A program made the translations under genes and the position numbers. Shown here piece after piece: positions 2,843-55,868 of a DNA stretch of 58,043 bases. The notes beneath the pieces are model-generated. The model did no database searches. It saw only the letters and a program-made list of their open reading frames with translations, and was not told the origin of the DNA. Position 1 is the stretch's first letter. Each line of letters begins with the position of its first letter. This stretch comes from a bacterium. GTDB lineage: Bacteria; Patescibacteriota; Patescibacteriia; Patescibacteriales; UBA12075. Location: contig JBDRDI010000039.1 in the NCBI GenBank assembly GCA_043820875.1, positions 1-58,043 on the forward strand. The letters are read 5' to 3'.

Positions 2843-3697
2843 TTATTTCTCGGCAATAACAAATAAATTATCCACGTTTACTTTATGGGCGGATGTAAAA
2901 AAAATAATCTTAGAAATATAAAACCAAAAATTTTTTAACAATTTTAAAAAAATATTCTTGCTGCCAGAGACGCTTTGAATCGGTTTGAGGTGGATAAATT
3001 TTATTTTTTTGAAATTATTTTTTGCAAGTAGCACTTTGATTGTTTTTGGAGTATATATATTGACATGATCTTTCGCCTCCATGTAATGGGCATGCGGATT
3101 TACGTTTTGAAAAATTTTTTTTAATTTTGCCTTAAAGAGTTGGACATCGGCGTTAGGCGTATGCATAAAAATAAAACCGCCTCTTTTTAATATTTTATTT
3201 AAATAACGAAGCGATAGATGCGGATTCGGAATATGTTCTATAACGTCCCACAAGGTGATGACGTCAAAATAATTATCCGGAAAAGAAGAATCTTCCACGC
3301 GACCTCGAAAAACATTTTTTAATTTCAAACTATTTTTCGCGAATTCTACCGCGGGACCAGAAACCTCATATCCAAAAACTTCCCAATCCGGATACGCGCT
3401 ATTCTTTTTCACAAAATAACCGAGGCCGCAACCGACATCTAAAAGTTTTCCGCGTCCGCCGCAGATAAACTTTTCGCAAAAATCTTCATACATTTTTTCA
3501 TGAGCGTCTTTCCACCAAAAATGGTCTTCCGCGACAATCCGCTCTCCGTAATAATCTTCATAATCATCCTTTTGCCGATAAGAAGAAAAAATATGCCCGC
3601 AATTTTCGCATTTTAAAATATCAATGCCGTTTTCCCTAAATACCGACTTACTTTCATTTTTCCCGCACAAAATACATTTCATATATTTAAATAACAC
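2843..3697 (-). CDS. Class I SAM-dependent methyltransferase with N-terminal Cys-x2-Cys motifs
   Basis: LLDVGCGLG motif I; FDVITLWDVIEH; CILC and CENCG at the N-terminus. Confidence 0.88.
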   Translation of the reverse strand: MLFKYMKCILCGKNESKSVFRENGIDILKCENCGHIFSSYRQKDDYEDYYGERIVAEDHFWWKDAHEKMYEDFCEKFICGGRGKLLDVGCGLGYFVKKNSAYPDWEVFGYEVSGPAVEFAKNSLKLKNVFRGRVEDSSFPDNYFDVITLWDVIEHIPNPHLSLRYLNKILKRGGFIFMHTPNADVQLFKAKLKKIFQNVNPHAHYMEAKDHVNIYTPKTIKVLLAKNNFKKIKFIHLKPIQSVSGSKNIFLKLLKNFWFYISKIIFFTSAHKVNVDNLFVIAEK

Positions 3698-3712
3698 TAT
3701 TTTTTAAAAAAA

Positions 3713-4132
3713 TTAATTTTTATTTTTAATCAACTTTTTTATTCCTATACCGATTCCATAACCAACGGCGAGAAGGCAGAGCATCAAAATTAAAAATCCA
3801 ATATTGTCTTGCAGGGCATATTTATCAAAATCTGTAATTATAAAAAGAATCGATAATAACCAAAATAAAAAAGTTCCGATTAAATAAACTTTCCAAGCTT
3901 TTTTCTGTATAAATATCGCAAAGGAAAAAATAGCCAACAAAAAAATATAAAAATAAACAAAACCTTCCGTAACGGCTCTTTCATCACATAACCCAATGAA
4001 AATATCACATCCTTTAAACTCCCAAAAAAACCTATGTAATGCTCCGCCTACCGGCGCCAATATCAACGCCAACAGTATAGATCCGCAATAAACGCTGATT
4101 ATTGTTATAATATCTTTCGTTTTTTCACTCAT
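3713..4132 (-). CDS. Hypothetical membrane protein with about 4 TM segments
   Basis: Four hydrophobic stretches; co-oriented, 6-bp gap to the upstream lipase gene. Confidence 0.7.
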   Translation of the reverse strand: MSEKTKDIITIISVYCGSILLALILAPVGGALHRFFWEFKGCDIFIGLCDERAVTEGFVYFYIFLLAIFSFAIFIQKKAWKVYLIGTFLFWLLSILFIITDFDKYALQDNIGFLILMLCLLAVGYGIGIGIKKLIKNKN

Positions 4133-4138
4133 AAATTA

Positions 4139-6421
4139 TTATAAATTATTTTTTAAATAATTAATATCTTGTTTAATTATATCACCTCCATACTTTATTA
4201 TCCAATCTTGCTTTTCGTAAATATTTATTAACTTTATCATAACCTCGTATTTTGTTTTAATTATTTTTTTCAGAATCTCCGCATTAGGATTGTCTTGATG
4301 CTTTTCAATATATTCCTTTACCCATTCCAAATCTTTTATTAACGTATTTTTAATCCGTTCCCGTTTTATAATATTTTCGCCGTAACATCTTTTCACGTCA
4401 TCAATCGCGCTGTCTATACTGGATATTATCATAAAATCAATTTCTTTTATTGTTTCATTGCCGGCCATGTCTACCGCGGTAATTTTTAAAACATGCGCGC
4501 CGAGCCTTTGATAAAACAAATCAACCGTGGTTGTTGATAAAATATTTCCGTCCAAATATATATAAATATTTTCTATTCCGGAAAAATCATCGGTTGCCGA
4601 ATAATCAATCGTCAAATTTTCACTATGTAAATACTTTTCCCCTTCAATCGGATTGTTTATCGCTATAACCGGCGGAATTTCGTCTTCCGGCTCCAAATCG
4701 CCAATCGGATTTTCTTCGTTTTCATTATTATAATTAAAATCAAAAGCATGATTTTCATTCAAGTTGATATTACCGGTAAAATCTTTGGTGATTTCTTTTT
4801 CTTCACTGATATAATCTACTTCCACTGCATATTCGCCGTTATCAGTTCCTTGTAATTCTATTTTATATTCGCCCTGTTCCGGATTTATAATCACGGCGAA
4901 TTCCGGTTCATTAATAAAGCCCGTATAAAAAGAGTGTTCTATTTCATTGATATTCACATTATTTGTAAAATCTTTACCCAATTTTTGGCCGCTCGGAGAA
5001 GTAATCACAAAATCAGCCGGAGAATGAATGCTAATTACTAATATTTCTTCCGGCTCCGGCGTGTTGTTAATTTCATAAATTGGCATTGTACCGGTTAAAT
5101 ATGATATCACTTGTTTTTGAGCTTCTGTCGGAAAACTATCATGAGAAGCATCATTAATTACAGATACAGGGAATGGCAATGAACTAATATTTGGCACCGT
5201 TCCATCGCCAGCTAAATTTATTGTCTCTTCTCTATATCCATGTTCCCACATCGGACTATAATCCTCACCAGAACTTACTTTAATCACATTTATGGTATTG
5301 TCGCCAGTATAACCAGTAATGTTTAATGCGCTTATACCACTGTTTAAAAATTGATTTATTTTTTCTTCCGAATTCAAGTATTCCAAAAAATCATTATATG
5401 GATAATTGTCAGGATAATTAATTTTATCGTACGGCCTTAATGATATGCTGTCCATATCTTGCAGATAAATGTAATCTGGCAATAGTTCTTCCACTGATTT
5501 TACTCTGTCTTGAATATAACTAAATAAACTATCATAACCAAACAAGTGAGCTTCAGAAATAAAATATATTTTTGCTATTTTTTCTTGATAACTTTCAAAT
5601 CCTGTCGCTCCTTCCCATCTTAAATAACTCTTCGGCACTCCTTTGTGCGGAGTCCCTAAAAATACAATCTTATCAACATCGTGGTCATAGTAATCGCTGA
5701 CAACATAATACCGTGTCACAAGTCCGCCCATGCTATGAGCCACAATATCAACTTTATCACTGCCGGAAATTGTTTTTACTTCATCTATTTTTTGTTTTAA
5801 AAATTGCGCGGTTACAACATTGGAATTGCGCCATTGGTATGGAAAAGCGAATAAAGTTTTATTCTCTTCATAGCCGGCTTGGAGAAAAGCGTCCCATAAA
5901 TTATCATAGGTGTCAAGAATTGGATCCAACTTCCACTCGCCATCAGAATACCAACTCCCCATAATCCCTGGCACAATAATGATCGGATTGGACGCAACAG
6001 CGGGGATATTAAAAGTCTTATTGTAAAAAACTGTCCCAGCTGGCCAACCTTCGCAACCATCTTCTTGACCATCGTCCAATTTAACGCTCTCATCTCCATA
6101 ATGAAGCCAGAGCGGTCCAATACCGCGACATCCGCCCTTTGAGTCAATAGCAGATACCATTAACACGTCTCCGACGCTAGCTTGAAAATTAACCGGCTGA
6201 TTATTGCAACTAGCCCAGTGCGGATCTATATCGCTATAAATCAAATTTCCGTTCAAATAAACATAAATATCATCGTCAACGCAAAAATTGTCCGTAAGCT
6301 GCGATCCACCGGAAAGTATAAAATTTCCGAAAGCAGCCCGCGCCACATTCACATCCGCGGCGGAAAAGAAAAACAGCGCGAAAAAAACCACAACGCAAAA
6401 TACAAATATTTTTTTCAACAT
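4139..6421 (-). CDS. Secreted alpha/beta hydrolase (PGAP1/LCAT-like lipase/acyltransferase) with flanking beta and Ig-like domains
   Basis: Signal peptide; IIIVPGIMGS; FPYQWR; nucleophile elbow VAHSMGG; FLGTPHKG; GDGTVP; candidate His in HDSFP; C-terminal Ig-like PPVIAINNP...AVDMAGN. Confidence 0.82.
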   Translation of the reverse strand: MLKKIFVFCVVVFFALFFFSAADVNVARAAFGNFILSGGSQLTDNFCVDDDIYVYLNGNLIYSDIDPHWASCNNQPVNFQASVGDVLMVSAIDSKGGCRGIGPLWLHYGDESVKLDDGQEDGCEGWPAGTVFYNKTFNIPAVASNPIIIVPGIMGSWYSDGEWKLDPILDTYDNLWDAFLQAGYEENKTLFAFPYQWRNSNVVTAQFLKQKIDEVKTISGSDKVDIVAHSMGGLVTRYYVVSDYYDHDVDKIVFLGTPHKGVPKSYLRWEGATGFESYQEKIAKIYFISEAHLFGYDSLFSYIQDRVKSVEELLPDYIYLQDMDSISLRPYDKINYPDNYPYNDFLEYLNSEEKINQFLNSGISALNITGYTGDNTINVIKVSSGEDYSPMWEHGYREETINLAGDGTVPNISSLPFPVSVINDASHDSFPTEAQKQVISYLTGTMPIYEINNTPEPEEILVISIHSPADFVITSPSGQKLGKDFTNNVNINEIEHSFYTGFINEPEFAVIINPEQGEYKIELQGTDNGEYAVEVDYISEEKEITKDFTGNINLNENHAFDFNYNNENEENPIGDLEPEDEIPPVIAINNPIEGEKYLHSENLTIDYSATDDFSGIENIYIYLDGNILSTTTVDLFYQRLGAHVLKITAVDMAGNETIKEIDFMIISSIDSAIDDVKRCYGENIIKRERIKNTLIKDLEWVKEYIEKHQDNPNAEILKKIIKTKYEVMIKLINIYEKQDWIIKYGGDIIKQDINYLKNNL

Positions 6422-6483
6422 AAAAATTTTTCAAAACTAAATATTTTTTATCCGACTCGCCAATTAAATAAAAACCATTGTTT

Positions 6484-9400
6484 TTACTTCGCAGCCACAC
6501 TCACTTCACCGGTCGGAGCGCTTTCAATATTCGCTTGATTAAACGACTTGATTCTAAAATAATAAGTGATACCTGAATTTAAATTCGCGACTGAATAAGT
6601 TTCAACGCGATGGTCAATGGTCTCTCGTGTCCATTCTTGTGAAGACGCGGTTCGGCTTTCAATAATAACTCCTGCCACGCCTTCGGCAGGCAATGTCCAA
6701 TTTAAATCAATTGTCCCATCCTCTGTTCCCGCTTTGGCGCTAGGATTGGACGGCGTCGCAAAAGGAGCCAAGTTCACGAGTTCCGCTTTTTCGGAAAAAT
6801 TTCCGGAAGTATCATAAGCCGCGATAGCCACTTTATAAATTACGCCATTCTTAACATCACTGATTATCGCGCCCCATTCCAAACCGATATCGGACTTGTT
6901 GGCATAATCTGTGGCGCTCTTTTCTGCCCAAAACACTCTGAATCCGGCCAAATCATTATTTGCCGCAAGTGTGGCATCTTTTGTTTCAGACCAGTCCAAA
7001 TCAATATTTTTATCTCCCGGAACGGCCTTAAACAAATTGCCGTTTACTATGACTGGAGAGGCGGTGTCTTGAATTTTTACCGAAATCTCTGAAGAAAGTT
7101 CACTTTCCGCGCCGGTAATACTGTTTTTTGCCGAAATAACGAAATAGTATGTCGCGCCTTTTTCCAAGGAAAAAATATAATAAGGACTGAACTCGCTGTG
7201 ATTTTTCGTTTCGCTGACAGATATATTATCAGAATAAGAGCCGGATGCTTTTCCGTAATAAATAACATAACTGTCTGCGTCAGGAACCGAATCCCACCAA
7301 AAAGCCGCGTTATCTCCTTCCTCTGTTTGGCTGTCGCTAACGTTATAAAGAATCAGATCTCCAATCACGGGAACTGATTCGCGGAAATAATAAGCTTCTT
7401 TAAACACACCATCACAAATTCCTTTCTTTTGACAATCCGCATCATACGCGCAAGTTCCGCCATCGATTAAGTCTGTTTGACAATGGCCACTTACACAGCT
7501 GATATTAGTTGTCGGCACATTGGGTACGGCGCAACTTGATTCATCCGCGCATAATTCATTGTTATAAAATCCGCCACGACACCTCCACTCTGATTTTCCT
7601 TTTATTAAAGTGCTTCCGCTCAATATTGCCGGTAAATCATCGTATGTCCCGGTTACGCCGGCATCACGGCAATAATATATTTCATAATTCGTATTACCAC
7701 AACTGGCGGAAGGAGGATTGCAATTTCCGGACGCGTCTTTCCACGGCGACCAAAAACCGTCGGAGTCTATTGGCGGCCACGGATTATCACAAATAAAAAC
7801 ATAAACATCTGCTTGTCCGGTGAACGAGGCGCTTGACGTGACAACGTTTGCTGTTGCTGAAACGCTTGTTCTCCAATCTGTTATTCCGTCCACGGCTTGT
7901 ATCAAAACGCGATTGGACCCGACAAGAACGGCAGGACTAATGTCTTTAACAATATCTTCATTACCTATGGACCAGTCCCATATCCAACTGTAAACGCCCG
8001 GAAGAGAAACCAATTTTTGACCGTTGGCGCTTAAGGATTGGGCGATAAAAAGTTTATCTCTATCGCGCGCCGTATCAAAAGTTGAATCGTTTGGATTGGT
8101 ATCAATTTCATCCAGATCGTTGGTCGTTGTTTGGAATAAATATGAAGAAGGGTTCACTTCCACACGGCTGATTTCGCAAACACCATTGTTTCTGGCCTGC
8201 TCCGGCATGGTAGTGAACATGGAGATATGGGCTCGGCTGAATTGCGCCCCGCTCATTGTTTCCGTATCATTGCCGTTCATCCCTATGCCCCAATAATTTT
8301 TTACGCCCTCGGAACTGTCTAAATTTTTGTCTCCCTTTACTATCACATAATATCTTCTGTCTCCGTCCAGTACTTTGTTCGGTTTGAACTCTAATATGCC
8401 ATGCTCGGCCGCGTTGTTATATCCGCCGGTTGCTCCGGTTATGGCGCAAAAATTATGTGTCGGATCCGGCGTCTCATAAGCAACAGCGGATTCTATCGGG
8501 AAAATTGAATAAATTGATTTTGCCAATCTACTGAATATGTTTGCTATAATAAATTTATTTTTATTTTTATTCAAATCATTTAAAGAAATATATGTTGTAT
8601 CATCCGGGCATAAATCCGCTCCATAATCTCCAACGATAATAATATTTCCGGAAAAACTGGACACATCCATTTTTTGGTCAAACTCAACGGAGATAATTGC
8701 GTTGCGACAAATATTTACGGCATTATCAGTCGGCGCAGTTTCAGTCGGAGCGACACTAACCACGTTGGGTCTGGCGCGACAGCAAGTATCACGTCCGCAA
8801 CCGGCCAATTCCGCCTCTCCAGACGGTGCGCATTGACTATCATCACTGCAACCGCAACACAACCCCCTTTGTCCGCCCGCGCACGGCTCAGCTTCGCGGC
8901 AATCCAAGATTGAGTTAATATTAGTGCAAGAATCAGGTGAGGCTGAAGTGTCACAGCAACAAGAACAAGTCGTATCATTCGGAACACAATTTCCGCCCGC
9001 ACAACCGCTTTCTCCGATACAACTATAAGGGTTTGAACAAAGCAAACCACAATTTCCGGTTGATTCATCAAAGCACGATTGACCTCCGATCGAACCGCCA
9101 TTACCACATTTTGATGAACAGATATCCAGTGACTTGTATGTCCCGGAAATATCCGGACTATTTTCGCAAGTTATCGGATCAGTTTGTGTACAATCATAAT
9201 ATGGACAATAGGCAAGTCCGTTGCCTCCCGGAATTGACGATTCATCTTCATCTACTCCGCGACAAGCGGAATTTTTCATATTGTCTACGCAACAATATTG
9301 ACTATGAGTTGAACACTCATTACTTGTAGAAAGAGCTCCGCAGTCGCGACAAACTCCTTGCGGATAATCCGCGCTACTTGTATCACAATATTTTCCGGAA

Positions 9401-12400
9401 GCTCCGGAACAATTACAAGCAGCATCTTGTTCGGCTGCGGTGGAACCAGCGTCGGCGCAACCAGTACAATATCCAAAAGACGCACCATCGGAAGAAGTGC
9501 CACTGCCACATTCACCGGAACATTCAAGAAGCGGGCAACAATCTCTCGCGCTTTGGCCGACTTCACAACAGCATTCGCAAGAAGCGCCTTTTGTTTTTTG
9601 GCATTCGCCATTACTTTGACAAATTGAATTATCCGGACAAATATCACTGCTAAATACACAATCCCAATCGCCGTCATTGTCATAGTCTTGACAGGTAGAA
9701 CCTGTCGCGCATGCAGAACAAACCGCACCGACTTTTTGGCATCTACTCTTGCCACCACTATCTTTTATCCAGTCCGTGGGACAGGACGCGTAAGTGTCAA
9801 AATATAATTTTCCGGCTTCACAATAAGCTATTACCGGATCATTAAAAACATCTTGCGCGGCTTCGCGACAAGTTGAATCTGCGACCACACATCTATCAAT
9901 TGTATCGCGATAAACGCATCCTTGTGTAGAACAAAAAGAACAAGAATAATCACAAGTGACAAGAGTCTCGTAGACGCCTCCTTGGCTGGCTGAACAGCGC
10001 CCCGGAGAATTCGGACAATAGACAGAGTCAAAACATTGTGTGGAACCAAGACCTGAACAAGATTCGGTATTCGCCGGAACACATACACATGAATCATTAC
10101 ATTCATAATCAGCAGGACAGACACTATTGTCTTGGACGCAAAAATTTTGACTGCTGGAGCAAGATTCCGGAAGATCAACTCCAAGACCGGTGGAAAATCC
10201 CCACTCAAAAACCGAACTTTTAATATCCGGATAACAACCGACGCTGATATCGTCAACGCAATAACCTGCGTTATAAGTACCGACGGGGCAACAGCTTTGA
10301 ACTCCGCAAGCATCATCTGGGCTGGAAGCTTCCAGACAAGAACCGATTGAAAAATTCAAACCGTTACTTTCTGAGGCAGGGCTTCCTTTGGAAACTTTTA
10401 CCGGACCGGTGATTGCGGTCGCTGGAACCGTGGTGCGCGCTTCATCTGCTCCGGATTCAGCATCTTCCTCCCAGTTTAAAATCGCGCTTCCTGATTGTCT
10501 TTCATTTCTATAAAACAATATCGCGCTATCGTTTGTGGCCGCGTCAAAATATTCGCCGATAAAATTTATTTCACTGTCAGGCACGCCCATAACCGGACTG
10601 ATTTTACATAATCCGGGCGCAAGAAGCGCGGAACTATCATATAAAAAGAGAGGCGAAATTCCGCCGGTTCGTACAATATTTTTGGTATCCGCTTCTTTTC
10701 CATTTGCATCCACTTTTATATAAAAATTACTATCTGTAAAATCTGACAAATCAGGAGCCTTAACTATAATTTGATTATTGGTCCATAAAGATGCGGAACA
10801 AGCAGCTGGAAATTCGTAATCTGCTTCTTTTTCATTCCCTTCCGCATTAAAGAAAAACACTCTATATGTTTCCCCAATTTGAGAAGGAGAAGCATTGCCA
10901 AAATTACCGCCGGATATCGTCACATATTGACCGTCTCTCCCTTGTACAGGACTGAAAGAGATTATATACGGCCCGGAATAAGCGCTTTTTATTACCTCAA
11001 AATTAAAATAATTACTAAATGCTCCATTACCATTTAAAATAAAAGTTGTGGCTCGGCCGGAATTCAAATTCGGAACTACCGCGTTTATTCTTTCAGGTGA
11101 AACGAACACGGAATTAAACGCCGGAACAAAAGATGATGTATTTCCGAAGTTGGCTTGCGCGCTATTATTAAAACGCAAACCATGATATGTTATCGCGGTA
11201 TCGGCTGATCCGGATAATGGGTCCAAAGCGCAAATTCCCGGTCGGGCTATTTGATTTATTATAAAATTAAATATCGATCCGCGATTATCCATATTGGAAT
11301 CGGAACGTCCATCGACAGAAACTATTATTTTTGCCGAATTCACAAGATCAGGATTGACATTGGCAGGCACCACGACCAAAATCTGATTATCAGACCAATT
11401 GTTTTGGCAATTTGAATTTGTGGCTTGCGGATTCAATGCCAACTCACCGTTTATTGTTACGGTTCCGGCGGAATTTCCAAAAAATCTGCCATTGATTGTG
11501 ATCATACCTCCTGGAGAAGAATTCGCGGTTTCCAAATCACAGTTATTACTTTGGCAATCACCATCCTCTGCGCAAAAAGAATTTGTTGGATTACCGGCGC
11601 CGTCGCGACAGAATCCTCCTGCCGGCGATACGGAATCAATGCGTGGCGCGTTTTGACAAAGACAACAATTGTTTACTCCTGTCGCGTAATTCGCGGCCTG
11701 GCAATCGGCTGTTGAAGCAGAACATTCGCACAAGTCAGAGGCACAACGATTATTATTTAAATTACAATCAATTTGATTACTTGCGCAATCATCGTTCAAA
11801 CTGTTCCCGCAGGCCGCGCCGGAGCAAGAAGCGCAATCTTGCCCACCGCAATCTATACCGGTTTCGTTTTCATCCAATATGTTATTGCAACAATGCGCCG
11901 CTCTTAAAACAAAATTTTTCTCCGCTGACGCGGTATTGCTGTCCAAATCGGAAGCGGTGGCATTAATCGCGTAAGATCGACCAGCGGAATAGGCTGGCTC
12001 TTCCGGCTGCCAAATAATTGTTCCCAATCCTTCCGTCCACCAATTGATTCCTTGTCCGCAAGGAGAAGAATCACAACCAATAATAAATGGCGGGGTATCT
12101 TGAAATGGTGAAGGAATTTGCAATGCTCCGCCATTCTCTTCTTCTTTAAATTCAACTTGGGAAACTCCGCTGTCGTCATTGGCGCTAAACCCAAGCTGGT
12201 TCGGCGCACCAAGACAAAGTTGACTATCAGACAATATGGCCACTGACGGTTTGGCGCAATCAATTTGATCGCTGGTGTTAAACGTTAAATCACAAGAATT
12301 ATTTTCGTTAAGTCCGCAGGAAAGTGTTGTCCCGCCGACATCCAATATTCCTCCTTGGCCGTTTAACGCGTTAACATTTATGGTTTGGCCGGGTTCAAAA

Positions 12401-13062
12401 CAACGAGTTGCTCCACAATCATTTTGAGGACAATCGCCACTGGGAATAAATTCAATATATCGTCCGGCAATATTATATGTTCCGTTCACATTACCGTTTT
12501 CGTCACTTAAAACAAATGAAGAAGCGGAAACCGTGTCAGCATCAACATCACGAGAAAAATAATATCTAACCACTGTGTTTATGGGGTAAATGCCGTTACC
12601 CGGGCTTTTTGAAAGAACGGAAAATGATTCACCGGATTGCGTTATTTCTCCGCCATCGCCGGGATCTGTCCCGTCGGAAGAAGTTCCCCCCAAGGAGCTT
12701 TGCATTTGATTCAATACCCACGAGACTATCAAAAACGCGCTCATAATAATAACTAAACCGATGACTGCATTGATTAAAGTTTTTTTGGCCGTTTCCATTT
12801 TTTGCGAGTCGCCGGCGCTGGTCATCCAAAGAAAGCCTCCATATAATATAATAATCGTCGCTATAATTCCTAAAAATGTCAAAGCGATGCGCACAATATT
12901 AACGGCCACGACTCGCGGATCAGAATCCCCGCCTCCCAAGCCAACATTATTGGCGTAATTCAATCCGAAATCGCTTGATTGCGCAAAAGCAAAATTTACA
13001 GCCCCAAAAACAGCAACTGCGATTATAGCAAAAATAAAAATTTTACTTGCTTTTTTAAACAT
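6484..13062 (-). CDS. Giant (2192 aa) Cys-rich surface protein: signal peptide, TrbC/VirB2-like pilin domain, Ig-like and IPT/TIG domains, disulfide-rich repeats, C-terminal FN3 repeats
   Basis: Two-TM pilin-like block LGIIATIIILYGGFLWMTSAGD...AKKTLINAVIGLVII; Big_5-like PINTVVRYYFSRDVD and RNAIISVEFDQKMD; IPT-like PRIDSVSP, ITINGRFFG, VTISGGNFG; FN3-like WDSVPDADSYVIYYG, LDWS and YYFRIKSFN. Confidence 0.75.
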   Translation of the reverse strand: MFKKASKIFIFAIIAVAVFGAVNFAFAQSSDFGLNYANNVGLGGGDSDPRVVAVNIVRIALTFLGIIATIIILYGGFLWMTSAGDSQKMETAKKTLINAVIGLVIIMSAFLIVSWVLNQMQSSLGGTSSDGTDPGDGGEITQSGESFSVLSKSPGNGIYPINTVVRYYFSRDVDADTVSASSFVLSDENGNVNGTYNIAGRYIEFIPSGDCPQNDCGATRCFEPGQTINVNALNGQGGILDVGGTTLSCGLNENNSCDLTFNTSDQIDCAKPSVAILSDSQLCLGAPNQLGFSANDDSGVSQVEFKEEENGGALQIPSPFQDTPPFIIGCDSSPCGQGINWWTEGLGTIIWQPEEPAYSAGRSYAINATASDLDSNTASAEKNFVLRAAHCCNNILDENETGIDCGGQDCASCSGAACGNSLNDDCASNQIDCNLNNNRCASDLCECSASTADCQAANYATGVNNCCLCQNAPRIDSVSPAGGFCRDGAGNPTNSFCAEDGDCQSNNCDLETANSSPGGMITINGRFFGNSAGTVTINGELALNPQATNSNCQNNWSDNQILVVVPANVNPDLVNSAKIIVSVDGRSDSNMDNRGSIFNFIINQIARPGICALDPLSGSADTAITYHGLRFNNSAQANFGNTSSFVPAFNSVFVSPERINAVVPNLNSGRATTFILNGNGAFSNYFNFEVIKSAYSGPYIISFSPVQGRDGQYVTISGGNFGNASPSQIGETYRVFFFNAEGNEKEADYEFPAACSASLWTNNQIIVKAPDLSDFTDSNFYIKVDANGKEADTKNIVRTGGISPLFLYDSSALLAPGLCKISPVMGVPDSEINFIGEYFDAATNDSAILFYRNERQSGSAILNWEEDAESGADEARTTVPATAITGPVKVSKGSPASESNGLNFSIGSCLEASSPDDACGVQSCCPVGTYNAGYCVDDISVGCYPDIKSSVFEWGFSTGLGVDLPESCSSSQNFCVQDNSVCPADYECNDSCVCVPANTESCSGLGSTQCFDSVYCPNSPGRCSASQGGVYETLVTCDYSCSFCSTQGCVYRDTIDRCVVADSTCREAAQDVFNDPVIAYCEAGKLYFDTYASCPTDWIKDSGGKSRCQKVGAVCSACATGSTCQDYDNDGDWDCVFSSDICPDNSICQSNGECQKTKGASCECCCEVGQSARDCCPLLECSGECGSGTSSDGASFGYCTGCADAGSTAAEQDAACNCSGASGKYCDTSSADYPQGVCRDCGALSTSNECSTHSQYCCVDNMKNSACRGVDEDESSIPGGNGLAYCPYYDCTQTDPITCENSPDISGTYKSLDICSSKCGNGGSIGGQSCFDESTGNCGLLCSNPYSCIGESGCAGGNCVPNDTTCSCCCDTSASPDSCTNINSILDCREAEPCAGGQRGLCCGCSDDSQCAPSGEAELAGCGRDTCCRARPNVVSVAPTETAPTDNAVNICRNAIISVEFDQKMDVSSFSGNIIIVGDYGADLCPDDTTYISLNDLNKNKNKFIIANIFSRLAKSIYSIFPIESAVAYETPDPTHNFCAITGATGGYNNAAEHGILEFKPNKVLDGDRRYYVIVKGDKNLDSSEGVKNYWGIGMNGNDTETMSGAQFSRAHISMFTTMPEQARNNGVCEISRVEVNPSSYLFQTTTNDLDEIDTNPNDSTFDTARDRDKLFIAQSLSANGQKLVSLPGVYSWIWDWSIGNEDIVKDISPAVLVGSNRVLIQAVDGITDWRTSVSATANVVTSSASFTGQADVYVFICDNPWPPIDSDGFWSPWKDASGNCNPPSASCGNTNYEIYYCRDAGVTGTYDDLPAILSGSTLIKGKSEWRCRGGFYNNELCADESSCAVPNVPTTNISCVSGHCQTDLIDGGTCAYDADCQKKGICDGVFKEAYYFRESVPVIGDLILYNVSDSQTEEGDNAAFWWDSVPDADSYVIYYGKASGSYSDNISVSETKNHSEFSPYYIFSLEKGATYYFVISAKNSITGAESELSSEISVKIQDTASPVIVNGNLFKAVPGDKNIDLDWSETKDATLAANNDLAGFRVFWAEKSATDYANKSDIGLEWGAIISDVKNGVIYKVAIAAYDTSGNFSEKAELVNLAPFATPSNPSAKAGTEDGTIDLNWTLPAEGVAGVIIESRTASSQEWTRETIDHRVETYSVANLNSGITYYFRIKSFNQANIESAPTGEVSVAAK

Positions 13063-13121
13063 GACGCTGATTTATATCTTAAAATATTTATAAATAACTG
13101 AAGACCGAGGACTGGGGACTG

Positions 13122-15833
13122 TTATAAGCAGTTCCCTTCTGCGTCCAAATCCGCCGTACTGCTCCCGTCACAACAAGAAGGCGAAGCGGAATTGGCAGAG
13201 CAACCAGGGCCGGCACTTGGCTTGTAACAATTTTGATAAACATCACGCACGCCCGAACCGATTTGTGTTCTGACACCGGTATTGCCACCAAAATCCGTAT
13301 GTCTGATTTCCACAGCGGTTTTGTCCAGCTCACTGCTTGCTCCGGAATCACTGTTTATTCCCTCGCTTGCTATCCAATAACCAACTGCCAAATTATTTAA
13401 ATTCCAAAGATTTATATTTTTATGCCTGACTACTGTCCCATTGTTAACGCTTACTTCCCTAATGCCTGTTGCCAAGCTGGAATTCATCATTACTTTGTTG
13501 AATTGAATTTTTACCGGTTCAATTTGTGAGACTCCGTTTTGCCCATAATCCGGACTTATTGATTCAATTTGTGGAGACGATGCGTCCAATACGTTACTAA
13601 TAAAAAACGACCAGCTGTAATTATCGCCACTCCCCGTCCAGTTATTTTCATTATAATATTCAACCGGACCTTCGGCTTCTTCGCTTCTGTCGCCGTCAAG
13701 AGAGTTTCTGGCCGCATCCATAATACCGTCAAAATTCAATGACGACATCGGATAATTTTTTTGAAGAGAGTCACTGCGACAATGTCCGCTTTCACAAACG
13801 TTATATGGAGAGAAAGGCAGACAATCATTATTATCGGAACAAGCTATCAAGTTGGCCGCGTTTAATTCAACACGCAAATTGCTGTTTTCCGGCAAACAAT
13901 AAATTTCCTCGCCACAGCCGTTGACCCCGCAAATATTACTGGAAATAAATTCAACTGTTTTATATACATTTGATATAACAAATTTTCCGGATAAATAATC
14001 ATTCCTGCAAACTCCGGCCGAACAATCATATGAAAGACAATCGCTATTTGTTGAGCATGCCTCGCCGGCGTGAACAACGCCGGAATTATTATTAACCACT
14101 CTGATACGATCGCTTACTTCGTCCGCGCCACCTGACACGACAGAAGGCATAATCGCTTCATTAAAATTAATCTGGATTACGGAATTTTTTGGCTTATCGC
14201 TTTTGTCGCGCACGCTCACTGAAACGCCTTGGTCTTTACCATCGCTTAAATATCCGGTCAAAGGAACAATAAGACCGGAAGAATTTGATGACACTTTAAT
14301 ATGGTTGCCAACGGCTCCGGCAATCTTGGCGATTATGGTAATCATGTTTCCGGAATAGTTGGCCGATACACTTGGATTGGCCGGCGAATCAGATGTTCCG
14401 TTGATAACATTGGAAATATTTTGAGCAGTAATTGCCGTTGTTCCTCCCAAAGGAATTTGCCCAACAGCAAGATTTGTTGCTCCAGCCGGAACAAAAGAAT
14501 AAATAATTGAACCGACTGTCAAAATATCAGACTCGCGAAACGGAGTCACGGCAATGCTCCAACTTTGTCCGGCTGTATATTCTTGCGGCAAGCGCAATGT
14601 AAAAAAAGAAGAAAAAACAACCGTATTATTATTTCCAACAGTAGACGCGCCCAACGGACCGGAACTTCCGCTCAGTGAAATTGTCTTTGCGTCTTGCTCC
14701 ACAGCCAAGGTTAAATTACCGGATTGATTATGTCTTTCATTGATTGATATTATTTCCAAACCTGACACTGGAGCGTTTATACTGGCTGTCGCTTTGACCA
14801 AGGCAAGTGGCTGACTATTGACCGTAATGTTGCCCGAAGCCCTCGCGGAGGCGCTGGCCGTAAAAACATCTTGTTCATTATCCGGAGGTGGAAAAATTCC
14901 ACTTTGCAAAACTTGTGGTGGATCCAAATCAATTCTATTGCTTACTTCAAAACTCCAGAGAAGATAATCCAAACTGCAATGAGCGAATATTCCTTGTCCA
15001 CCGGAATTTTCAACCGCGTTGGATATATAAACCGAATACCAAATATATTCCGAAGGCGAACCCAAATAATTGGCCGGAATAAATACAAAAGTACGATTAT
15101 CATTACTTACTGCTATTAAATCGGCTACCAAACTGTTACAAACCGTGCCGTTAACACAACTATCTGTTTCGTTTCTATAAAATATTTTCACACTTGGATC
15201 GTCTCCGCCCGTGATTGCCCGGTCGCAATTCGCGCCAACGCAATCACAATATGTTCCATTATTATTGGTATCTTGGCAAACTGTTTGAGGATTAATGTCT
15301 TCTTTAAATGTCACTATGATTGAAGTATTTCTGGCCACTTCTTTTTGATTCACTTCCGGATAAACCGTTTCCACCGAGCAAGAGCCAATTGCTCCATATC
15401 CGGACACTGTCCCGGGCTGATTGATTCCACCTTGTTGCCGTTGTCCATCCGGACCCAAATTATTCAATACCCAACTGACAATCAAAAACGCGCACATAAT
15501 AATAATCATGCCAATAATTGCATTGATTAAAGTTTGTTTGGCTTTTCTTATTTTTTCTTCATCTCCTTGACTGGTCATCCAAAGCCAGCCGGCATACATA
15601 ATAATTACTACCGCAATAATTCCTAAAAACGTCAAAATAAGCTGCAAAATTCTCACGGCCACTACTCGCGGGTCAGAATCTCCTCCACCTAATCCCACAT
15701 TATTGGCATAATTCAATCCAAAATCAGTATTTTGCGCCATTGCAAAATGAGCCGTGGCAAAAAGAGACACGGCGACTATAAATAAAATTAAAATTTTTGT
15801 TTTTATGCTATTCTTTTTCACCATAAAAAACAC
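13122..15833 (-). CDS. 903-aa surface protein: signal peptide, TrbC/VirB2-like pilin domain, Ig-like (Big_5-type) domains and Cys-rich inserts
   Basis: Pilin block FLGIIAVVIIMYAGWLWMTSQGD.EKIRKAKQTLINAIIG; YPEVNQKEVARNTSIIVTFKEDI, NSVIQINFNEAI, SPDYGQNGVSQIEPVKIQFNKVM. The start may be a few codons downstream (MVKKN). Confidence 0.75.
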   Translation of the reverse strand: MFFMVKKNSIKTKILILFIVAVSLFATAHFAMAQNTDFGLNYANNVGLGGGDSDPRVVAVRILQLILTFLGIIAVVIIMYAGWLWMTSQGDEEKIRKAKQTLINAIIGMIIIMCAFLIVSWVLNNLGPDGQRQQGGINQPGTVSGYGAIGSCSVETVYPEVNQKEVARNTSIIVTFKEDINPQTVCQDTNNNGTYCDCVGANCDRAITGGDDPSVKIFYRNETDSCVNGTVCNSLVADLIAVSNDNRTFVFIPANYLGSPSEYIWYSVYISNAVENSGGQGIFAHCSLDYLLWSFEVSNRIDLDPPQVLQSGIFPPPDNEQDVFTASASARASGNITVNSQPLALVKATASINAPVSGLEIISINERHNQSGNLTLAVEQDAKTISLSGSSGPLGASTVGNNNTVVFSSFFTLRLPQEYTAGQSWSIAVTPFRESDILTVGSIIYSFVPAGATNLAVGQIPLGGTTAITAQNISNVINGTSDSPANPSVSANYSGNMITIIAKIAGAVGNHIKVSSNSSGLIVPLTGYLSDGKDQGVSVSVRDKSDKPKNSVIQINFNEAIMPSVVSGGADEVSDRIRVVNNNSGVVHAGEACSTNSDCLSYDCSAGVCRNDYLSGKFVISNVYKTVEFISSNICGVNGCGEEIYCLPENSNLRVELNAANLIACSDNNDCLPFSPYNVCESGHCRSDSLQKNYPMSSLNFDGIMDAARNSLDGDRSEEAEGPVEYYNENNWTGSGDNYSWSFFISNVLDASSPQIESISPDYGQNGVSQIEPVKIQFNKVMMNSSLATGIREVSVNNGTVVRHKNINLWNLNNLAVGYWIASEGINSDSGASSELDKTAVEIRHTDFGGNTGVRTQIGSGVRDVYQNCYKPSAGPGCSANSASPSCCDGSSTADLDAEGNCL

Positions 15834-15871
15834 AAAAATATTTGACTAATCCACAGTTATATAATAATATT

Positions 15872-15880
15872 ATTATAACA
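15872..15880 (-). promoter_or_regulatory. Extended -10 element (TGnTATAAT) upstream of the pilin-fusion operon
   Basis: The minus strand reads TGTTATAAT about 40 bp upstream of the 903-aa ORF, in the divergent intergenic region. Confidence 0.4.
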
Positions 15881-15949
15881 CAAAAAACAAAAAAAACACA
15901 ACCAAAAAATAATAGCTTCAGCAAAAATCATAAACAATAATTTAAATTT

Positions 15950-17431
15950 ATGACCATCGACAGGATAATTGCCAAAGTTCTTGAAAACGATCCGCATTCT
16001 GACACGGATCTTTTGCAGTTGGCTTATGATTTCGCGAAAAAAGCGCATGAAGGGCAAAAAAGAAAGAATGGCGAACAATATATTCAGCACGGCCTGCACA
16101 CTGCTTTTCTTTTGACGCAGATGCGAGCTGACTTGAACACCGTAATTGCCGGAATTTTGCACGATGTTCCCGAAGATACAAATTATTCGCTGGAAGATAT
16201 TAAAAAAAATTTTGGCGATGAGGTGGCCAAATTGGTGGAGGGAATTACAAAATTAAGTAAAATAAAATATCACGGTGTTAAAAGACAAAGAGAAAATTTA
16301 CGCAAAATGTTTATTGCCATGGCGCGCGACTTACGAGTAATAATTATAAAATTCTGTGACCGCCTTCATAATTTAAGAACTTTGGAAGCTCACAAAGAAG
16401 AAGAAAAAAGAACGCGCATCGCCCAAGAGACAATGGAAATTTACGCACCAATCGCCGGACTTTTAGGAATCTGGCGGTTAAAATGGCAGATGGAAGATAT
16501 TTGTTTTAAGTATTTAAACCCCAAGGAATATAAAGAACTGGAATATAAATATGAAATTGATAAAAAAACAGAACGCAACCAATACATTCAAAAAATAAAA
16601 AATATTTTAGGAAAAAGTTTAAAAGAATCCGGCATTGAATATAGAATTGACGGTCGATTCAAACACTTATACAGCATTTATAAAAAAATGCGCATCAAAG
16701 ATTATAAATTTGATGAAATTTATGACGTATTCGCCCTGCGCGTTATTGTACCGACAGTCTCAGACTGTTACAAAACGCTGGGCGTAATTCACTCCACGTG
16801 GAAGCCAAAAGCGGATCGGATCAAAGATTATATTGCCATGCCAAAACCAAACGGCTACCGCGGTTTGCACACTACTGTTTTCGCTCCGGAAAAAAAATCC
16901 GTGGAGTTTCAAATTAGAACGCAGGAAATGCACGAAGAAGCTTTGTATGGAATCGCCGCTCATTGGTATTACAGCAAACAAAAATCAGGAAACAAAACCG
17001 ACTATTTCAAACAACCCAGATGGGTCAAGGAAATATTAAACATCCAAAAAAGAGCCTTGGACACAAATGAATTTATCCAAGAAATAAAAATGGATATCTT
17101 TAATGATCGCATATTTGTTTTGTCTCCCAAGGGCGACGTGTTTGATTTGGTTGACGGCTCAACACCAATTGATTTCGCGTACGCGGTGCACACTGAAATT
17201 GGCAATAAAGCAACCAGCGCCCGCGTCAACGATAAAATGACGCCGCTCGATCAAAAATTAAGCAATGGCGATGTGGTGGAAATAATTATTGAAAAAAATC
17301 GAAAAAACCCAAACCAAGATTGGCTGAAATTCGTGAAATCCAACCGAGCAAAAGAAAAAATAAAATCATTCTCCAAGACATCGCGTTTTGAGCAGATTAA
17401 AAAAATTATTCCCGGGATACAGCGGAAATAA
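15950..17431 (+). CDS. rel: RelA/SpoT homologue (HD hydrolase, synthetase and TGS domains; no ACT domain)
   Basis: H.GQKRK.GE.YI.H; LHDVPED; IKFCDRLHNLRTL; GRFKHLYSIYKKM; DVFALRV; KDYIAMPKPNGYRGLHT; EFQIRT; TGS motif GSTPIDFAYAVHTEIG. Confidence 0.93.
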   Translation: MTIDRIIAKVLENDPHSDTDLLQLAYDFAKKAHEGQKRKNGEQYIQHGLHTAFLLTQMRADLNTVIAGILHDVPEDTNYSLEDIKKNFGDEVAKLVEGITKLSKIKYHGVKRQRENLRKMFIAMARDLRVIIIKFCDRLHNLRTLEAHKEEEKRTRIAQETMEIYAPIAGLLGIWRLKWQMEDICFKYLNPKEYKELEYKYEIDKKTERNQYIQKIKNILGKSLKESGIEYRIDGRFKHLYSIYKKMRIKDYKFDEIYDVFALRVIVPTVSDCYKTLGVIHSTWKPKADRIKDYIAMPKPNGYRGLHTTVFAPEKKSVEFQIRTQEMHEEALYGIAAHWYYSKQKSGNKTDYFKQPRWVKEILNIQKRALDTNEFIQEIKMDIFNDRIFVLSPKGDVFDLVDGSTPIDFAYAVHTEIGNKATSARVNDKMTPLDQKLSNGDVVEIIIEKNRKNPNQDWLKFVKSNRAKEKIKSFSKTSRFEQIKKIIPGIQRK

Positions 17432-46506: not shown

Positions 46507-46562
46507 ATATTTTTATTTTTCTATATTATCACATTTATGTATTGTTGTCATTATGCCCCGAC

Positions 46563-46604
46563 CCCATCCTGTCCTTCTCCTTGCCAAGGGGGAGGGACGA
46601 TGGG
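46563..46604. repeat. Purine/pyrimidine-skewed hairpin (CCCATC...TCCTTCTCCTT/AAGGGGGAGGGA...GATGGG)
   Basis: Imperfect inverted repeat similar in style to the CCCTCCTCTT/AAGAGGAGGG hairpin at 53799-53826. Confidence 0.55.
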
Positions 46605-46635
46605 AAATGTTTTTTTATTATTTATTATTCTTTAT

Positions 46636-46939
46636 TGAAATTGTCCCGGCAGAGTCTCCTCGCAAGGGACTCTGCCGCGGTTTTCTATTCTGCACGGCGT
46701 CGTAGTCCTCTGCGGAGAGACTACGACGGGACAGAAGCGAGAGACTACGACGGGACAGAAATATATTTTTCCATTCTAATATTGTAAATGTAATAAAATA
46801 GGTTTGATCAGAAATGAATATTTTGTTATCTCTTACGGCCATATTTTTTATTTTGTTCCGGCAGAGTCTCTCCGCAGAGGACTCTGCCGTTCCGCCGCCG
46901 CGTCGTAGTCCTCTGCGGAGAGACTACGACGGGACAGAA
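46636..46939. mobile_element. REP doublet cassette (RAYT-2 family) enclosing a RAYT 5' relic
   Basis: Unit 46636-46760 (with duplicated GAGACTACGACGGGACAGAA), relic 46764-46842, unit 46855-46939. Confidence 0.85.
46764..46842 (-). pseudogene. Truncated 5' fragment of a RAYT-2 paralogue
   Basis: Encodes MAVRDNKIFISDQTYFITFTILEWK, versus MAVRDNKIFIPDRTYFITFTILDWK in RAYT-2, then runs into a REP. Confidence 0.88.
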
Positions 46940-46960
46940 ATATCCGCCATCCGCCATCCG

Positions 46961-53509: not shown

Positions 53510-53528
53510 TTTATATTTAATTTATATT

Positions 53529-53758
53529 TTGTCATTCCGAATCCCCGCGCTTTTTTATTTTTGTCATTCCGAATCCCCGCGCCGCAGCGGGGTGAGGAAT
53601 CGCTTCGACTTTTTAATCGCGCGAATTTTGGCATAAACCATTTCAACGAGGATTAACTGAGCAACGGATGGCAATTAACATATTCTTACGGCATTCGCGT
53701 TTTTATCTCTTGCCTTGTCGAAGGGATTCCTCGCCCTGCGGCGGGTTCGGAATGACAA
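53529..53758. mobile_element. Second GTCATTCCGAA MITE/REPIN-like element (53561-53758) with a duplicated left end (53529-53550)
   Basis: TTGTCATTCCGAATCCCCGCGC occurs twice, 32 bp apart; right end GCGGGTTCGGAATGACAA; interior alignable to 24141-24394. Confidence 0.75.
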
Positions 53759-55856: not shown

Positions 55857-55868
55857 ATTTAATTATTT

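What the first reader, a model, noticed from the sequence alone, without database searches (positions are those of the whole stretch)
6484..15833. Candidate system: VirB2/TrbC-pilin-anchored giant adhesins encoded in tandem
Seen: two consecutive genes (903 and 2192 aa) start with signal peptide + short leader + two-TM pilin-like hairpin, then carry about 800 and 2,050 aa of Ig, IPT, Cys-rich and FN3 domains. No C-terminal anchor or VirB4/VirD4 ATPase is in the window. Established: classical VirB2/TrbC pilins are about 70-100 aa and some are cyclised. Inference: these are minor pilins that display huge host-binding domains from a T4SS-pilin-type filament or membrane array; the C-terminal cargo would preclude cyclisation.
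Basis: partly seen in the sequence, partly recalled or inferred. Interest (0 to 1): 0.78.

Follow-up and report, generated by a model that had tools for sequence, protein, structure and literature searches.

The report
Giant surface proteins on secretion-pilin stems
Two neighbouring genes of an ultra-small groundwater bacterium (Patescibacteria, Falkowbacteria-like) each join a complete secretion-system pilin module to a very large Ig-like outer domain; the pair is conserved across its bacterial order, and it may be how these host-dependent cells attach contact proteins to their poorly understood type IV secretion apparatus.

Summary
Genes at 13122-15824(-) (900 aa; 903 from an upstream GTG) and 6484-13062(-) (2192 aa) each encode four parts:
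- a Sec signal peptide
- a 24-residue tag
- a two-helix hairpin that matches Pfam T4SS_pilin (PF18895) above its cut-off
- after a disordered linker, 760 or 2,050 residues of Big_5/TIG/Cys-rich/FN3 beta-domains, with no C-terminal anchor

The fusion begins where free pilins end.

The genome carries the rest of a Patescibacteria-type T4SS on other contigs: PrgI/VirB3, VirB4, VirB6-like, a TrwB-like ATPase and an 8-gene free pilin array.

The pair is syntenic in 8 of 8 sampled genomes of the order. The 900-aa protein defines at least 633 clusters at 50% identity.

The fused modules keep the pilin signature. They nest within one clade of free pilins and co-vary with that pilin and with each other inside each genome. 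The tag is identical in both fusions with 11 synonymous and 0 non-synonymous changes, and this pattern recurs in a second genome with a different tag.

Best reading: these are modular VirB2-like pilins, that is, surface proteins held by a working pilin handle. Display on a filament is unproven. Homology to classical VirB2 is weak (hhalign probability 20%). I found no published description. Verdict: a new variant of a known kind.

The parts
13122..15824 (-). Gene FA: 900-aa modular pilin made of signal peptide, tag, T4SS_pilin hairpin, linker and an all-beta Ig-like ectodomain. The ORF can be extended to a GTG at 15833 (903 aa).
15735..15824 (-). FA signal peptide, about 30 residues, ending in the AMA|Q signal peptidase I-type site. 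The cleavage site is inferred from sequence.
15654..15725 (-). FA 24-residue mature N-terminal tag, DFGLNYANNVGLGGGDSDPRVVAV. It is identical to the tag of FB.
   Evidence: 11 synonymous and 0 non-synonymous codon differences. pLDDT about 45-59.
15459..15671 (-). FA pilin hairpin: helix 55-87, loop QGDE, helix 92-125. It matches PF18895.
15408..15458 (-). FA flexible linker of about 17 residues with low pLDDT. It starts where free pilins end.
13125..15407 (-). FA ectodomain: a chain of beta-sandwich domains (Big_5 at about 153-189 and about 750-805), Cys-rich inserts, and a conserved C-terminal CC...C motif.
13063..13121 (-). 59-bp gap between FA and FB with no terminator-like site. The two genes are probably co-transcribed.
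6484..13062 (-). Gene FB: 2192-aa modular pilin with the same N-terminal module as FA and a different, larger ectodomain.
12901..12972 (-). FB 24-residue tag, identical in protein sequence to the FA tag.
12706..12918 (-). FB pilin hairpin (about residues 49-119). It matches PF18895 and is 43/71 identical to the FA module over the helices and the residues that follow.
6487..12654 (-). FB ectodomain:
- Big_5 (about 148-210)
- TIG x2 (about 514-690)
- Cys-rich region with no Pfam match (about 900-1440)
- Big_5 (1440-1497)
- three FN3-like domains (about 1915-2181)
15825..15949 (.). Intergenic region between FA and the divergent relA/spoT-like gene. It probably holds the promoter of the pair, since it contains TATAAT-like words.
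   Evidence: conserved divergent RelA_SpoT neighbour

Best explanation
FA and FB are modular VirB2-like (PF18895) pilins.

How they would be made (inferred): each protein is exported by Sec and its signal peptide is cut at an AxA|Q site. The two hydrophobic helices then insert as a hairpin, with the short basic loop in the cytoplasm and both ends outside. As a result the 760- or 2,050-residue chain of Ig-like, TIG, Cys-rich and FN3 domains sits on the cell surface, tethered through a roughly 17-residue flexible linker.

What the hairpin does: it is not a generic anchor. It is a pilin module that has kept the family's packing and loop signature. It evolves in step with its tandem partner and with one type of free pilin encoded in the genome's pilin array.

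Most likely function: the hairpin serves as a handle that plugs the two large ectodomains into the pilin-based part of the Patescibacteria type IV secretion apparatus. That part could be the membrane pilin pool around VirB6/VirB4, a short stalk, or a filament. The secretion machine would thereby carry its own contact or adhesion proteins. This would fill the role taken by VirB5 or PrgB-type adhesins in other T4SSs.

Shown: the architecture, family membership, topology logic, conservation, co-variation, and presence of the T4SS genes.

Inferred: processing, interaction with free pilins and the T4SS, and adhesion.
For: Module identity:
- Both proteins match PF18895 above its cut-off.
- All 35 aligned modules match PF18895 and 20 of 35 reach TrbC at E<=0.01.
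- The fusions align end to end with free 125-135-aa pilins and diverge about 10 residues after helix 2.
- The hairpin is predicted at pLDDT 90-95.

Retained constraint:
- 28 of the 51 columns that are >=70% conserved in 119 free pilins keep the same residue in 120 fusions. These include the inter-helix loop WMT..GNE.K...AK.
- Across 88 orthologues the hairpin is among the best conserved parts of FA: 0.54-0.63 identity, against 0.14-0.70 per 30-residue block (most blocks 0.2-0.5) in the ectodomain.

Partner and machinery in the same genome:
- There are 15 pilin ORFs, including an 8-gene array on C43.
- Also present are PrgI/VirB3, VirB4 (P-loop_TraG, 2e-28), a VirB6-like protein and a TrwB-like ATPase.
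- VirB4 is 78-85% identical across genera.

Phylogeny and co-variation:
- Fused modules fall inside one clade of free pilins. That clade includes the first gene of the own-genome array (C43_6348) and the multi-copy pilins of relatives' arrays.
- Same-genome identity exceeds permuted pairings. For fused versus free pilin, the tag scores 0.52 vs 0.39 and the helices 0.58 vs 0.53. For FA versus FB, the tag scores 0.56 vs 0.38. In every case p=2e-4.

The tag:
- It is identical in FA and FB with 11 synonymous and 0 non-synonymous codon changes, while the rest of the module has 28 of 71 non-synonymous.
- The same pattern occurs in Falkowbacteria RIFOXYA2_FULL_47_19 with a different 23-residue tag: 11 synonymous and 0 non-synonymous, against 22 of 66 in the helices.

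Conservation of the pair:
- It is syntenic in distant relatives.
- At least 12 of the 25 genomes of the family show a ~900-aa and/or ~2,000-aa pilin-fusion ORF, and 8 show both in tandem.
- All 8 sampled genomes of the order have it, with FB directly downstream of FA.
- FA has 633 representative clusters at E<=1e-30.

Ectodomain: the full FA model is confident (pLDDT 87) and matches only Ig-like chains, with no enzyme fold.
Against: - The pair is not linked to virB4, virB6 or the pilin array. In relative G003 the three loci lie hundreds of kb apart or on different contigs.
- No VirB2-type filament has yet been observed in any Patescibacterium (PMC12857230, PMC10633639).
- The same small hairpin family occurs in monoderm conjugation clusters that make no pili: sub-threshold NCBIfam Mbov_0395 match and a weak hit in a Pontibacillus cluster.
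- The fold search cannot tell this hairpin from other helical hairpins. The best hit has E 0.84 and the T-pilus VirB2 ranks 41st.
- hhalign against TrwL/VirB2 gives only 19.7% probability.
- Within-genome co-variation could come from gene conversion rather than physical interaction. Tag identity between FA and FB is only 38-71% in 11 other genomes.
- Adhesion is inferred from fold class alone.
- No expression data exist; only one groundwater DNA run holds the sequence.
Confidence: 0.58

Rival explanations
1. Passive anchor. The hairpin descends from a pilin but now serves only as a Sec-inserted two-TM membrane anchor for ordinary surface adhesins. It has no interaction with free pilins or the T4SS.
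For: - The pair is unlinked to all T4SS genes and sits among housekeeping genes (relA, hisS, lepB, ybeY).
- No pilus is known in this phylum (PMC12857230).
- A helical hairpin is a simple, easily reused anchor.
Against: - A passive anchor should lose the conserved cytoplasmic loop and the small-residue packing motif, but both are kept.
- The hairpin is among the best conserved parts of FA.
- The modules co-vary with one free pilin type and with each other within genomes.
- The exposed tag is under very strong purifying selection in two genomes.
Confidence: 0.24
2. Envelope lattice. FA and FB are S-layer-like structural proteins of the cell envelope, tethered by the hairpin, rather than adhesins or secretion-system parts.
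For: - They are core-genome, syntenic and single-copy, and conserved across an order.
- The top structural match of the FA model is the Nitrosopumilus S-layer protein. Big_5 domains also occur in S-layer proteins.
Against: - The S-layer match is very weak (E 1.3e-3, probability 0.10, TM 0.08) and reflects generic Ig-like chains.
- This reading does not explain retention of the pilin signature, co-variation with free pilins, or the matched tags.
- No abundance data are available.
Confidence: 0.1
3. Processed precursor. The fusion is cut after helix 2, releasing a normal free pilin and a secreted ectodomain. This would resemble the C-terminal trimming of RP4 TrbC.
For: - A disordered linker of about 17 residues separates hairpin and ectodomain exactly where free pilins end.
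- Classical TrbC is trimmed at its C-terminus (general knowledge).
Against: - There is no dedicated TraF-like peptidase; the genome has one S26 enzyme.
- The linker is poorly conserved, with no evident cleavage motif (0.31 identity in block 121-150).
- The genome already encodes many free pilins, so a precursor route would add little.
Confidence: 0.06

Closest known systems
VirB2-like pilins and pilin arrays of the Patescibacteria T4SS (Wang et al. 2023, PMC10633639; Quinonero-Coronel et al. 2025, PMC12102498)
   Same: - The Pfam family is the same (PF18895), with the same signal peptide and two-helix hairpin.
- This genome has an 8-gene array and the monoderm-type T4SS genes PrgI/VirB3, VirB4 and VirB6-like.
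- The fused modules nest inside one clade of these free pilins.
   Different: - Here the pilin carries 760 or 2,050 extra residues of Ig-like ectodomain.
- The two genes form a conserved tandem pair beside relA, unlinked to the array and to virB4.
- The 2025 survey states that no adhesins such as PrgB were detected, and it does not describe fusions.
Classical conjugative pilins VirB2 / TrbC / TrwL / TraA (PF04956 and relatives)
   Same: - Both have a long leader, two hydrophobic helices joined by a short polar/basic loop, and both termini outside.
- There are sub-threshold but co-linear TrbC matches (E 2.5e-5 for the isolated module).
   Different: - The match is below Pfam's cut-off, and hhalign against TrwL gives only 19.7% probability.
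- There is no outer membrane, no VirB5/7/9/10, and no cyclisation.
- Polymerisation is unproven.
- The size is 900-2192 aa instead of 70-120.
Modular type IV pilins, e.g. PilB of Streptococcus sanguinis (Raynaud et al. 2021, PMC8179133)
   Same: The design principle is the same. A small N-terminal pilin module is joined by a short linker to a bulky functional module for presentation by the filament. Such pilins are widespread, and the paper's examples include Falkowbacteria proteins.
   Different: - The pilin superfamily and machinery are unrelated: class III signal peptide, prepilin peptidase and PilB/PilT ATPases.
- FA and FB have a signal peptidase I-type site and a two-helix hairpin, not an alpha1-plus-beta-sheet pilin fold.
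Surface adhesins of monoderm conjugation systems (PrgB-type, LPxTG-anchored) and VirB5 tip proteins
   Same: They share the proposed role: contact with the partner cell on behalf of a T4SS.
   Different: - FA and FB have no LPxTG or C-terminal anchor and no polymer adhesin domain.
- Attachment would be through a covalently fused pilin, not through sortase or docking on a pilus tip.
Mbov_0395 family pilin-like conjugal transfer proteins (NCBIfam NF045849) of Mycoplasma ICEs and Bacillota elements
   Same: - These are small two-helix hairpin proteins next to VirB4-like ATPases in monoderms.
- FA and FB match at E 5e-8 and 2e-6.
- There is a weak tblastn hit inside such a cluster in Pontibacillus.
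   Different: - The matches fall below the curated cut-off (32 and 27 bits against 40).
- Those proteins are small and unfused.

Membership tests
Pfam PF18895 T4SS_pilin | Profile match above the gathering score | tested here: met
   FA scores 40.6 bits and FB 40.4 bits against a cut-off of 26.6. The isolated module scores 45 bits, and 35 of 35 aligned relatives match.
Pfam PF18895 T4SS_pilin | Signal peptide followed by two hydrophobic helices joined by a short polar loop | tested here: met
   Hydropathy segments. AlphaFold2 helix 55-87, loop, helix 92-125 at pLDDT about 90-95.
Pfam PF18895 T4SS_pilin | Small stand-alone protein (about 110-170 aa) | tested here: not met
   The proteins are 900 and 2192 aa. 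Free relatives end 10-15 residues after helix 2.
Classical VirB2/TrbC conjugative pilins (PF04956) | Profile match above the gathering score, or a confident profile-profile match | tested here: not met
   TrbC scores 22.0, 17.6 and 24.8 bits against a cut-off of 27.9. hhalign of A1 against a TrwL alignment gives probability 19.7% and E 0.0012. Distant relationship is plausible but not established here.
Classical VirB2/TrbC conjugative pilins (PF04956) | Encoded with VirB4 and other T4SS genes | tested here: inconclusive
   None are in the window. VirB4, PrgI/VirB3, a VirB6-like protein and a TrwB-like ATPase are present on other contigs. They are unlinked in near-complete relatives.
Classical VirB2/TrbC conjugative pilins (PF04956) | Polymerises into an extracellular pilus with bound phospholipid | not testable with these tools
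   This needs cryo-EM/ET or biochemistry. No such filament has been reported for Patescibacteria (PMC12857230).
Classical VirB2/TrbC conjugative pilins (PF04956) | Head-to-tail cyclisation (T-pilin, RP4 TrbC) by a TraF-like peptidase | tested here: not met
   The C-terminus lies 780-2070 residues from helix 2. The genome has a single S26 peptidase.
Modular type IV pilins (T4P/T4F) | Class III signal peptide with G|F/M-xxxE prepilin peptidase site and hydrophobic alpha1-N | tested here: not met
   The sequences show signal peptidase I-type AMA|Q and AFA|Q sites and no prepilin motif.
LPxTG / sortase-anchored Gram-positive adhesins | C-terminal LPxTG motif, hydrophobic segment and basic tail | tested here: not met
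   There is no hydrophobic segment beyond residue 128 (FA) or 121 (FB). The C-termini end ...DAEGNCL and ...EVSVAAK.
S-layer proteins | Forms a regular 2-D lattice and is a dominant envelope protein | not testable with these tools
   There is only a weak generic structural match to an archaeal S-layer chain, and no expression data.

The most novel reading that the evidence does not exclude
FA and FB would be the first modular conjugative-type (VirB2-family) pilins. On this reading the essential but functionally unexplained T4SS of Patescibacteria builds a stalk or filament in a monoderm envelope from the multi-copy type-1 pilin. A matched FA-FB pair, recognised through the shared lineage-specific N-terminal tag and the co-evolving hairpins, would form its first-assembled (tip) layer. 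This pair would replace both the VirB5 tip protein and the PrgB-type adhesins, and would provide the host-contact device of these epibionts.
Probability: 0.22. Interest if true: 0.85.

Novelty: new variant of a known kind. Interest (0 to 1): 0.62.

Why it matters
Patescibacteria make up a large share of bacterial diversity and depend on other cells. In the one species studied genetically, the T4SS and its VirB2-like pilin array are essential, yet nobody knows what the system does or whether it builds a pilus. The 2025 genomic survey reported finding no T4SS adhesins.

Here a pair of very large surface proteins is built directly on the pilin module and conserved across an order. This yields a concrete, testable link between the secretion apparatus and cell contact:
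- Label FA or FB and see where the pilin-based structure is.
- Test whether the hairpins bind the free pilin.

It would also extend the 'modular pilin' principle, so far documented for type IV pili, to the unrelated conjugative-pilin family.

Tried and rejected
- Foldseek of the isolated hairpin against the PDB was uninformative. The best hits were ion-channel and kinase helices at E about 1, and the T-pilus VirB2 ranked 41st. A PDB sequence-profile search found nothing.
- hhalign against a TrwL/VirB2 alignment gave only 19.7% probability, so I do not claim membership of the classical family.
- PF03135 (the VirB4 N-terminal domain) found nothing in the genome. VirB4 appeared only with AAA_10/P-loop_TraG.
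- A HerA/DUF87 ATPase with N-terminal TM segments (C27) was considered as a T4SS ATPase. I rejected it because it sits next to a ~249-aa ORF and two large ~830-aa ORFs that by eye resemble type I restriction-modification and nuclease genes; I did not scan them.
- A search for RNA or other sequencing runs to gauge expression found only one groundwater DNA run.
- tblastn of the module against plasmids gave one weak hit (E 0.8) to a Mbov_0395 pilin-like gene.
- I suspected an NlpC/P60-like motif in the C-terminal part of a 343-aa pilin fusion on C18. Neither Pfam nor a PDB sequence search supported it.
- The idea that the tag's 100% identity is general was rejected, because 11 other genomes show 38-71% identity.
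Full report
**What is there**

The window is contig C39 of a 920-kb, 60-contig genome that is about 93% complete. Its closest named relatives are Candidatus Falkowbacteria and other Parcubacteria-group MAGs. The only public run holding the sequence is a groundwater metagenome.

Two same-strand ORFs lie at 13122-15833(-) and 6484-13062(-), separated by 59 bp with no terminator-like site. The first most likely starts at ATG 15824 (900 aa, MVKKNS...), which matches the database entry. I call the two proteins FA (900 aa) and FB (2192 aa).

**Anatomy**

- Each protein has exactly three hydrophobic segments, a signal peptide and two helices, and nothing hydrophobic at the C-terminus.
- Both N-termini match Pfam PF18895 (T4SS_pilin) above the gathering score.
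- Both match TrbC/VirB2 (PF04956) and NCBIfam Mbov_0395 'pilin-like conjugal transfer protein' below their cut-offs.
- AlphaFold2 with 35 aligned sequences gives helix 55-87, a four-residue loop and helix 92-125 at pLDDT about 90-95.
- The loop region is basic (EKIRKAK). By the positive-inside rule it should be cytoplasmic, which puts both the mature N-terminus and the C-terminal extension outside the cell. This step is an inference.
- Free pilins of the same family (125-135 aa) align end to end with the module and stop 10-15 residues after helix 2. The fusion therefore begins where free pilins end.
- A full-length FA model is confident (pLDDT 87, pTM 0.71). It shows a disordered linker at about 125-140 followed by an all-beta ectodomain.
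- Structural neighbours of that model are only Ig-like chains and CopC/Big_5-like sandwiches, with no enzyme fold.
- Pfam on pieces shows Big_5 domains in FA. In FB it shows Big_5, two TIG domains, a roughly 540-residue Cys-rich stretch without a Pfam match, another Big_5 and three FN3-like domains.
- FA and FB share only the N-terminal module, which is 49% identical over the first 195 residues. Their ectodomains are unrelated.

The genome encodes 15 PF18895 ORFs:
- the two giants
- a tandem array of eight free pilins on C43
- three scattered free pilins
- a tandem pair of 343- and 357-aa fusions on C18

T4SS machinery exists on other contigs:
- PrgI/VirB3, a 226-aa ORF and a VirB4 ATPase (P-loop_TraG, 2e-28) on C22
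- a VirB6/TrbL-like 828-aa protein on C42
- a soluble TrwB/VirD4-like ATPase with a zinc finger on C28

This is the monoderm-type Patescibacteria T4SS described by Quinonero-Coronel et al. 2025 (PMC12102498) and Wang et al. 2023 (PMC10633639). VirB4 is single-copy and 78-85% identical across genera of the family. In relative G003 (two contigs), virB4, the pilin array and the FA-FB pair lie far apart or on different contigs.

**Conservation**

- FA has more than 90 full-length orthologues at 36-50% identity. Nearly all carry PF18895 plus Big_5, and sources name them 'pilin' or 'hypothetical'.
- FA has 633 representative clusters at E<=1e-30 in the 1.84-billion-protein library, most aligned from the first residues.
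- The pair and its flanks are syntenic in distant relatives, with a divergent relA/spoT upstream and TSP3-repeat protein, a roughly 350-aa membrane protein and ybeY downstream.
- All 25 genomes of the GTDB family carry 4-18 pilin ORFs. At least 12 show a ~900-aa and/or ~2,000-2,300-aa fusion ORF, and 8 show both in tandem.
- FA's ectodomain is found in 51 of 301 sampled genomes of the class, and FB's in 23 of 301. Both are present in all 8 sampled genomes of the order, always with FB just downstream of FA.
- The proteins evolve faster than housekeeping neighbours. FA is 41% and FB 32-39% identical to relatives, against 51-72% for RelA, HisRS and LepB.

**Is the hairpin still a pilin, or just an anchor?**

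Four results bear on this.

1. *Signature retained.* The fused modules keep the family signature. Of the 51 columns that are >=70% conserved among 119 free pilins, 28 hold the same conserved residue in 120 fusions. These include the small-residue motif of helix 1 and the inter-helix loop WMT..GNE.K...AK. The hairpin is among the best conserved parts of FA.

2. *Phylogenetic placement.* In a tree of 104 modules from 13 genomes, the fused modules fall within one clade of free pilins. This clade holds the first gene of this genome's array (C43_6348) and the pilins present in two to four tandem copies in relatives. The fused modules do not group with the other array pilins. The tree rests on a short alignment and I did not examine branch supports.

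3. *Co-variation within genomes.* Fused modules resemble the type-1 free pilin of their own genome more than those of other genomes. The tag scores 0.52 against 0.39 for permuted pairings, and the helices 0.58 against 0.53. FA and FB resemble each other more within than between genomes, with the tag at 0.56 against 0.38. In every case p=2e-4. For paralogues that split before the species did, this excess indicates either co-evolution or gene conversion.

4. *The tag.* The 24-residue segment between the signal peptide and helix 1 is identical in FA and FB. The two copies differ at 11 synonymous sites and at no non-synonymous site, whereas the rest of the module has 28 of 71 non-synonymous codons. 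The same pattern occurs in Falkowbacteria RIFOXYA2_FULL_47_19 with a completely different 23-residue tag: 11 synonymous and 0 non-synonymous changes, against 22 of 66 in the helices. The tag is predicted disordered, as expected for a segment that folds on a partner. In 11 other genomes FA-FB tag identity is only 38-71%, so the extreme case is not universal.

**Limits**

- The fold search cannot distinguish this hairpin from other helical hairpins.
- No PDB sequence matches.
- Profile-profile comparison with a TrwL/VirB2 alignment gives 19.7% probability.
- Membership of PF18895 is therefore established, while homology to classical VirB2 remains plausible but unproven here.
- No VirB2-type filament has been observed in Patescibacteria (PMC12857230).
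- Related small hairpin proteins sit in monoderm conjugation clusters that make no pili.
- Adhesion is inferred from fold class only.
- No expression data were found.

**Interpretation**

The best-supported reading (about 0.58) is that FA and FB are modular VirB2-like pilins. They are surface proteins whose pilin module is still functional as a pilin module and acts as the handle that joins them to the pilin-based part of the T4SS. That part could be a membrane pool, a stalk or a filament.

Rivals:
- a passive two-TM anchor (0.24)
- an S-layer-like envelope protein (0.10)
- a precursor cleaved after helix 2 (0.06)

The bold version has probability about 0.22. In it, a matched FA-FB tip complex sits on a T4SS filament built of type-1 pilin and replaces VirB5 and PrgB-type adhesins.

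**Comparison with known systems**

The pilin family and its arrays are published. I found no paper that describes PF18895 pilins fused to large ectodomains. The 2025 survey states that no T4SS adhesins were detected. The nearest conceptual precedent is the modular type IV pilin (PMC8179133), which belongs to an unrelated pilin superfamily.

Earlier notes of this scan report the same architecture in other Patescibacteria genomes. They agree with this reading but are not independent evidence.

**Verdict**

This is a new variant of a known kind, with interest 0.62.

Noticed in passing
own genome, contig C18:5361-7467 (+), outside the window: A second tandem pair of pilin fusions (357 and 343 aa) has PF18895 modules and Cys-rich C-terminal parts. 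The 343-aa protein carries ...LDCSSYVQSLW... and ...GHAYIYGG..., which recall NlpC/P60 catalytic motifs. Neither Pfam nor a PDB sequence search supports this. If real, it would be a pilin-tethered wall hydrolase in a lineage where VirB1 is usually missing.
   Followed up: partly
window 2843-6421 (-): Three genes lie between FB and the conserved TSP3-repeat gene: a secreted LCAT/lipase-like alpha/beta hydrolase with a Big_7 domain (760 aa), a 139-aa multi-TM protein and a methyltransferase-like ORF. Relatives carry nothing, or a different 1124-aa protein, at this position. It is therefore a variable slot downstream of the pair.
   Followed up: partly
own genome, contig C43:3127-6725 (-), outside the window: There is an eight-gene tandem array of free PF18895 pilins. 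Its first gene (C43_6348, 125 aa) is the closest free paralogue of the FA and FB modules (phmmer 3.7e-35) and shares 17 of 24 tag residues. Relatives have two to four tandem copies of this type, while this genome shows one.
   Followed up: yes
own genome, contig C28:10374-13797 (-), outside the window: A soluble TrwB/VirD4-like ATPase (622 aa) carries a C-terminal treble-clef zinc finger. It is preceded by a 520-aa membrane protein with no Pfam match. This may be a two-gene module separate from the VirB4 cluster.
   Followed up: no
own genome, contig C22:73-3163 (+), and relatives G002-G021: VirB4 is 78-85% identical across different genera of the family. This is far more conserved than RelA or HisRS (51-72%) or FA (41%), which fits an essential role.
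   Followed up: partly
window 6001-16000 and 46001-56000: The genes for large surface proteins have 42-46% G+C, against 34-37% in the housekeeping flanks. This probably reflects Gly/Ala/Ser/Thr/Cys-rich ectodomains rather than foreign origin, given the conserved synteny.
   Followed up: no
window 35161-39090 (-), 46961-53509 (-) and 53967-55856 (-): Three further large secreted proteins lie in the same window. One is a 1309-aa He_PIG plus vWA protein. One is a 2182-aa protein with no Pfam match. One is a 629-aa protein of FN3/purple-acid-phosphatase-N-like repeats. The window is unusually rich in surface proteins.
   Followed up: no
own genome, contig C27:12579-20682 (-), outside the window: A HerA/DUF87 ATPase has an N-terminal multi-TM region. 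It sits next to a ~249-aa ORF and two large (~830-aa) ORFs that by eye resemble type I restriction-modification and nuclease genes; I did not scan these. It is probably a defence locus, not part of the T4SS.
   Followed up: no
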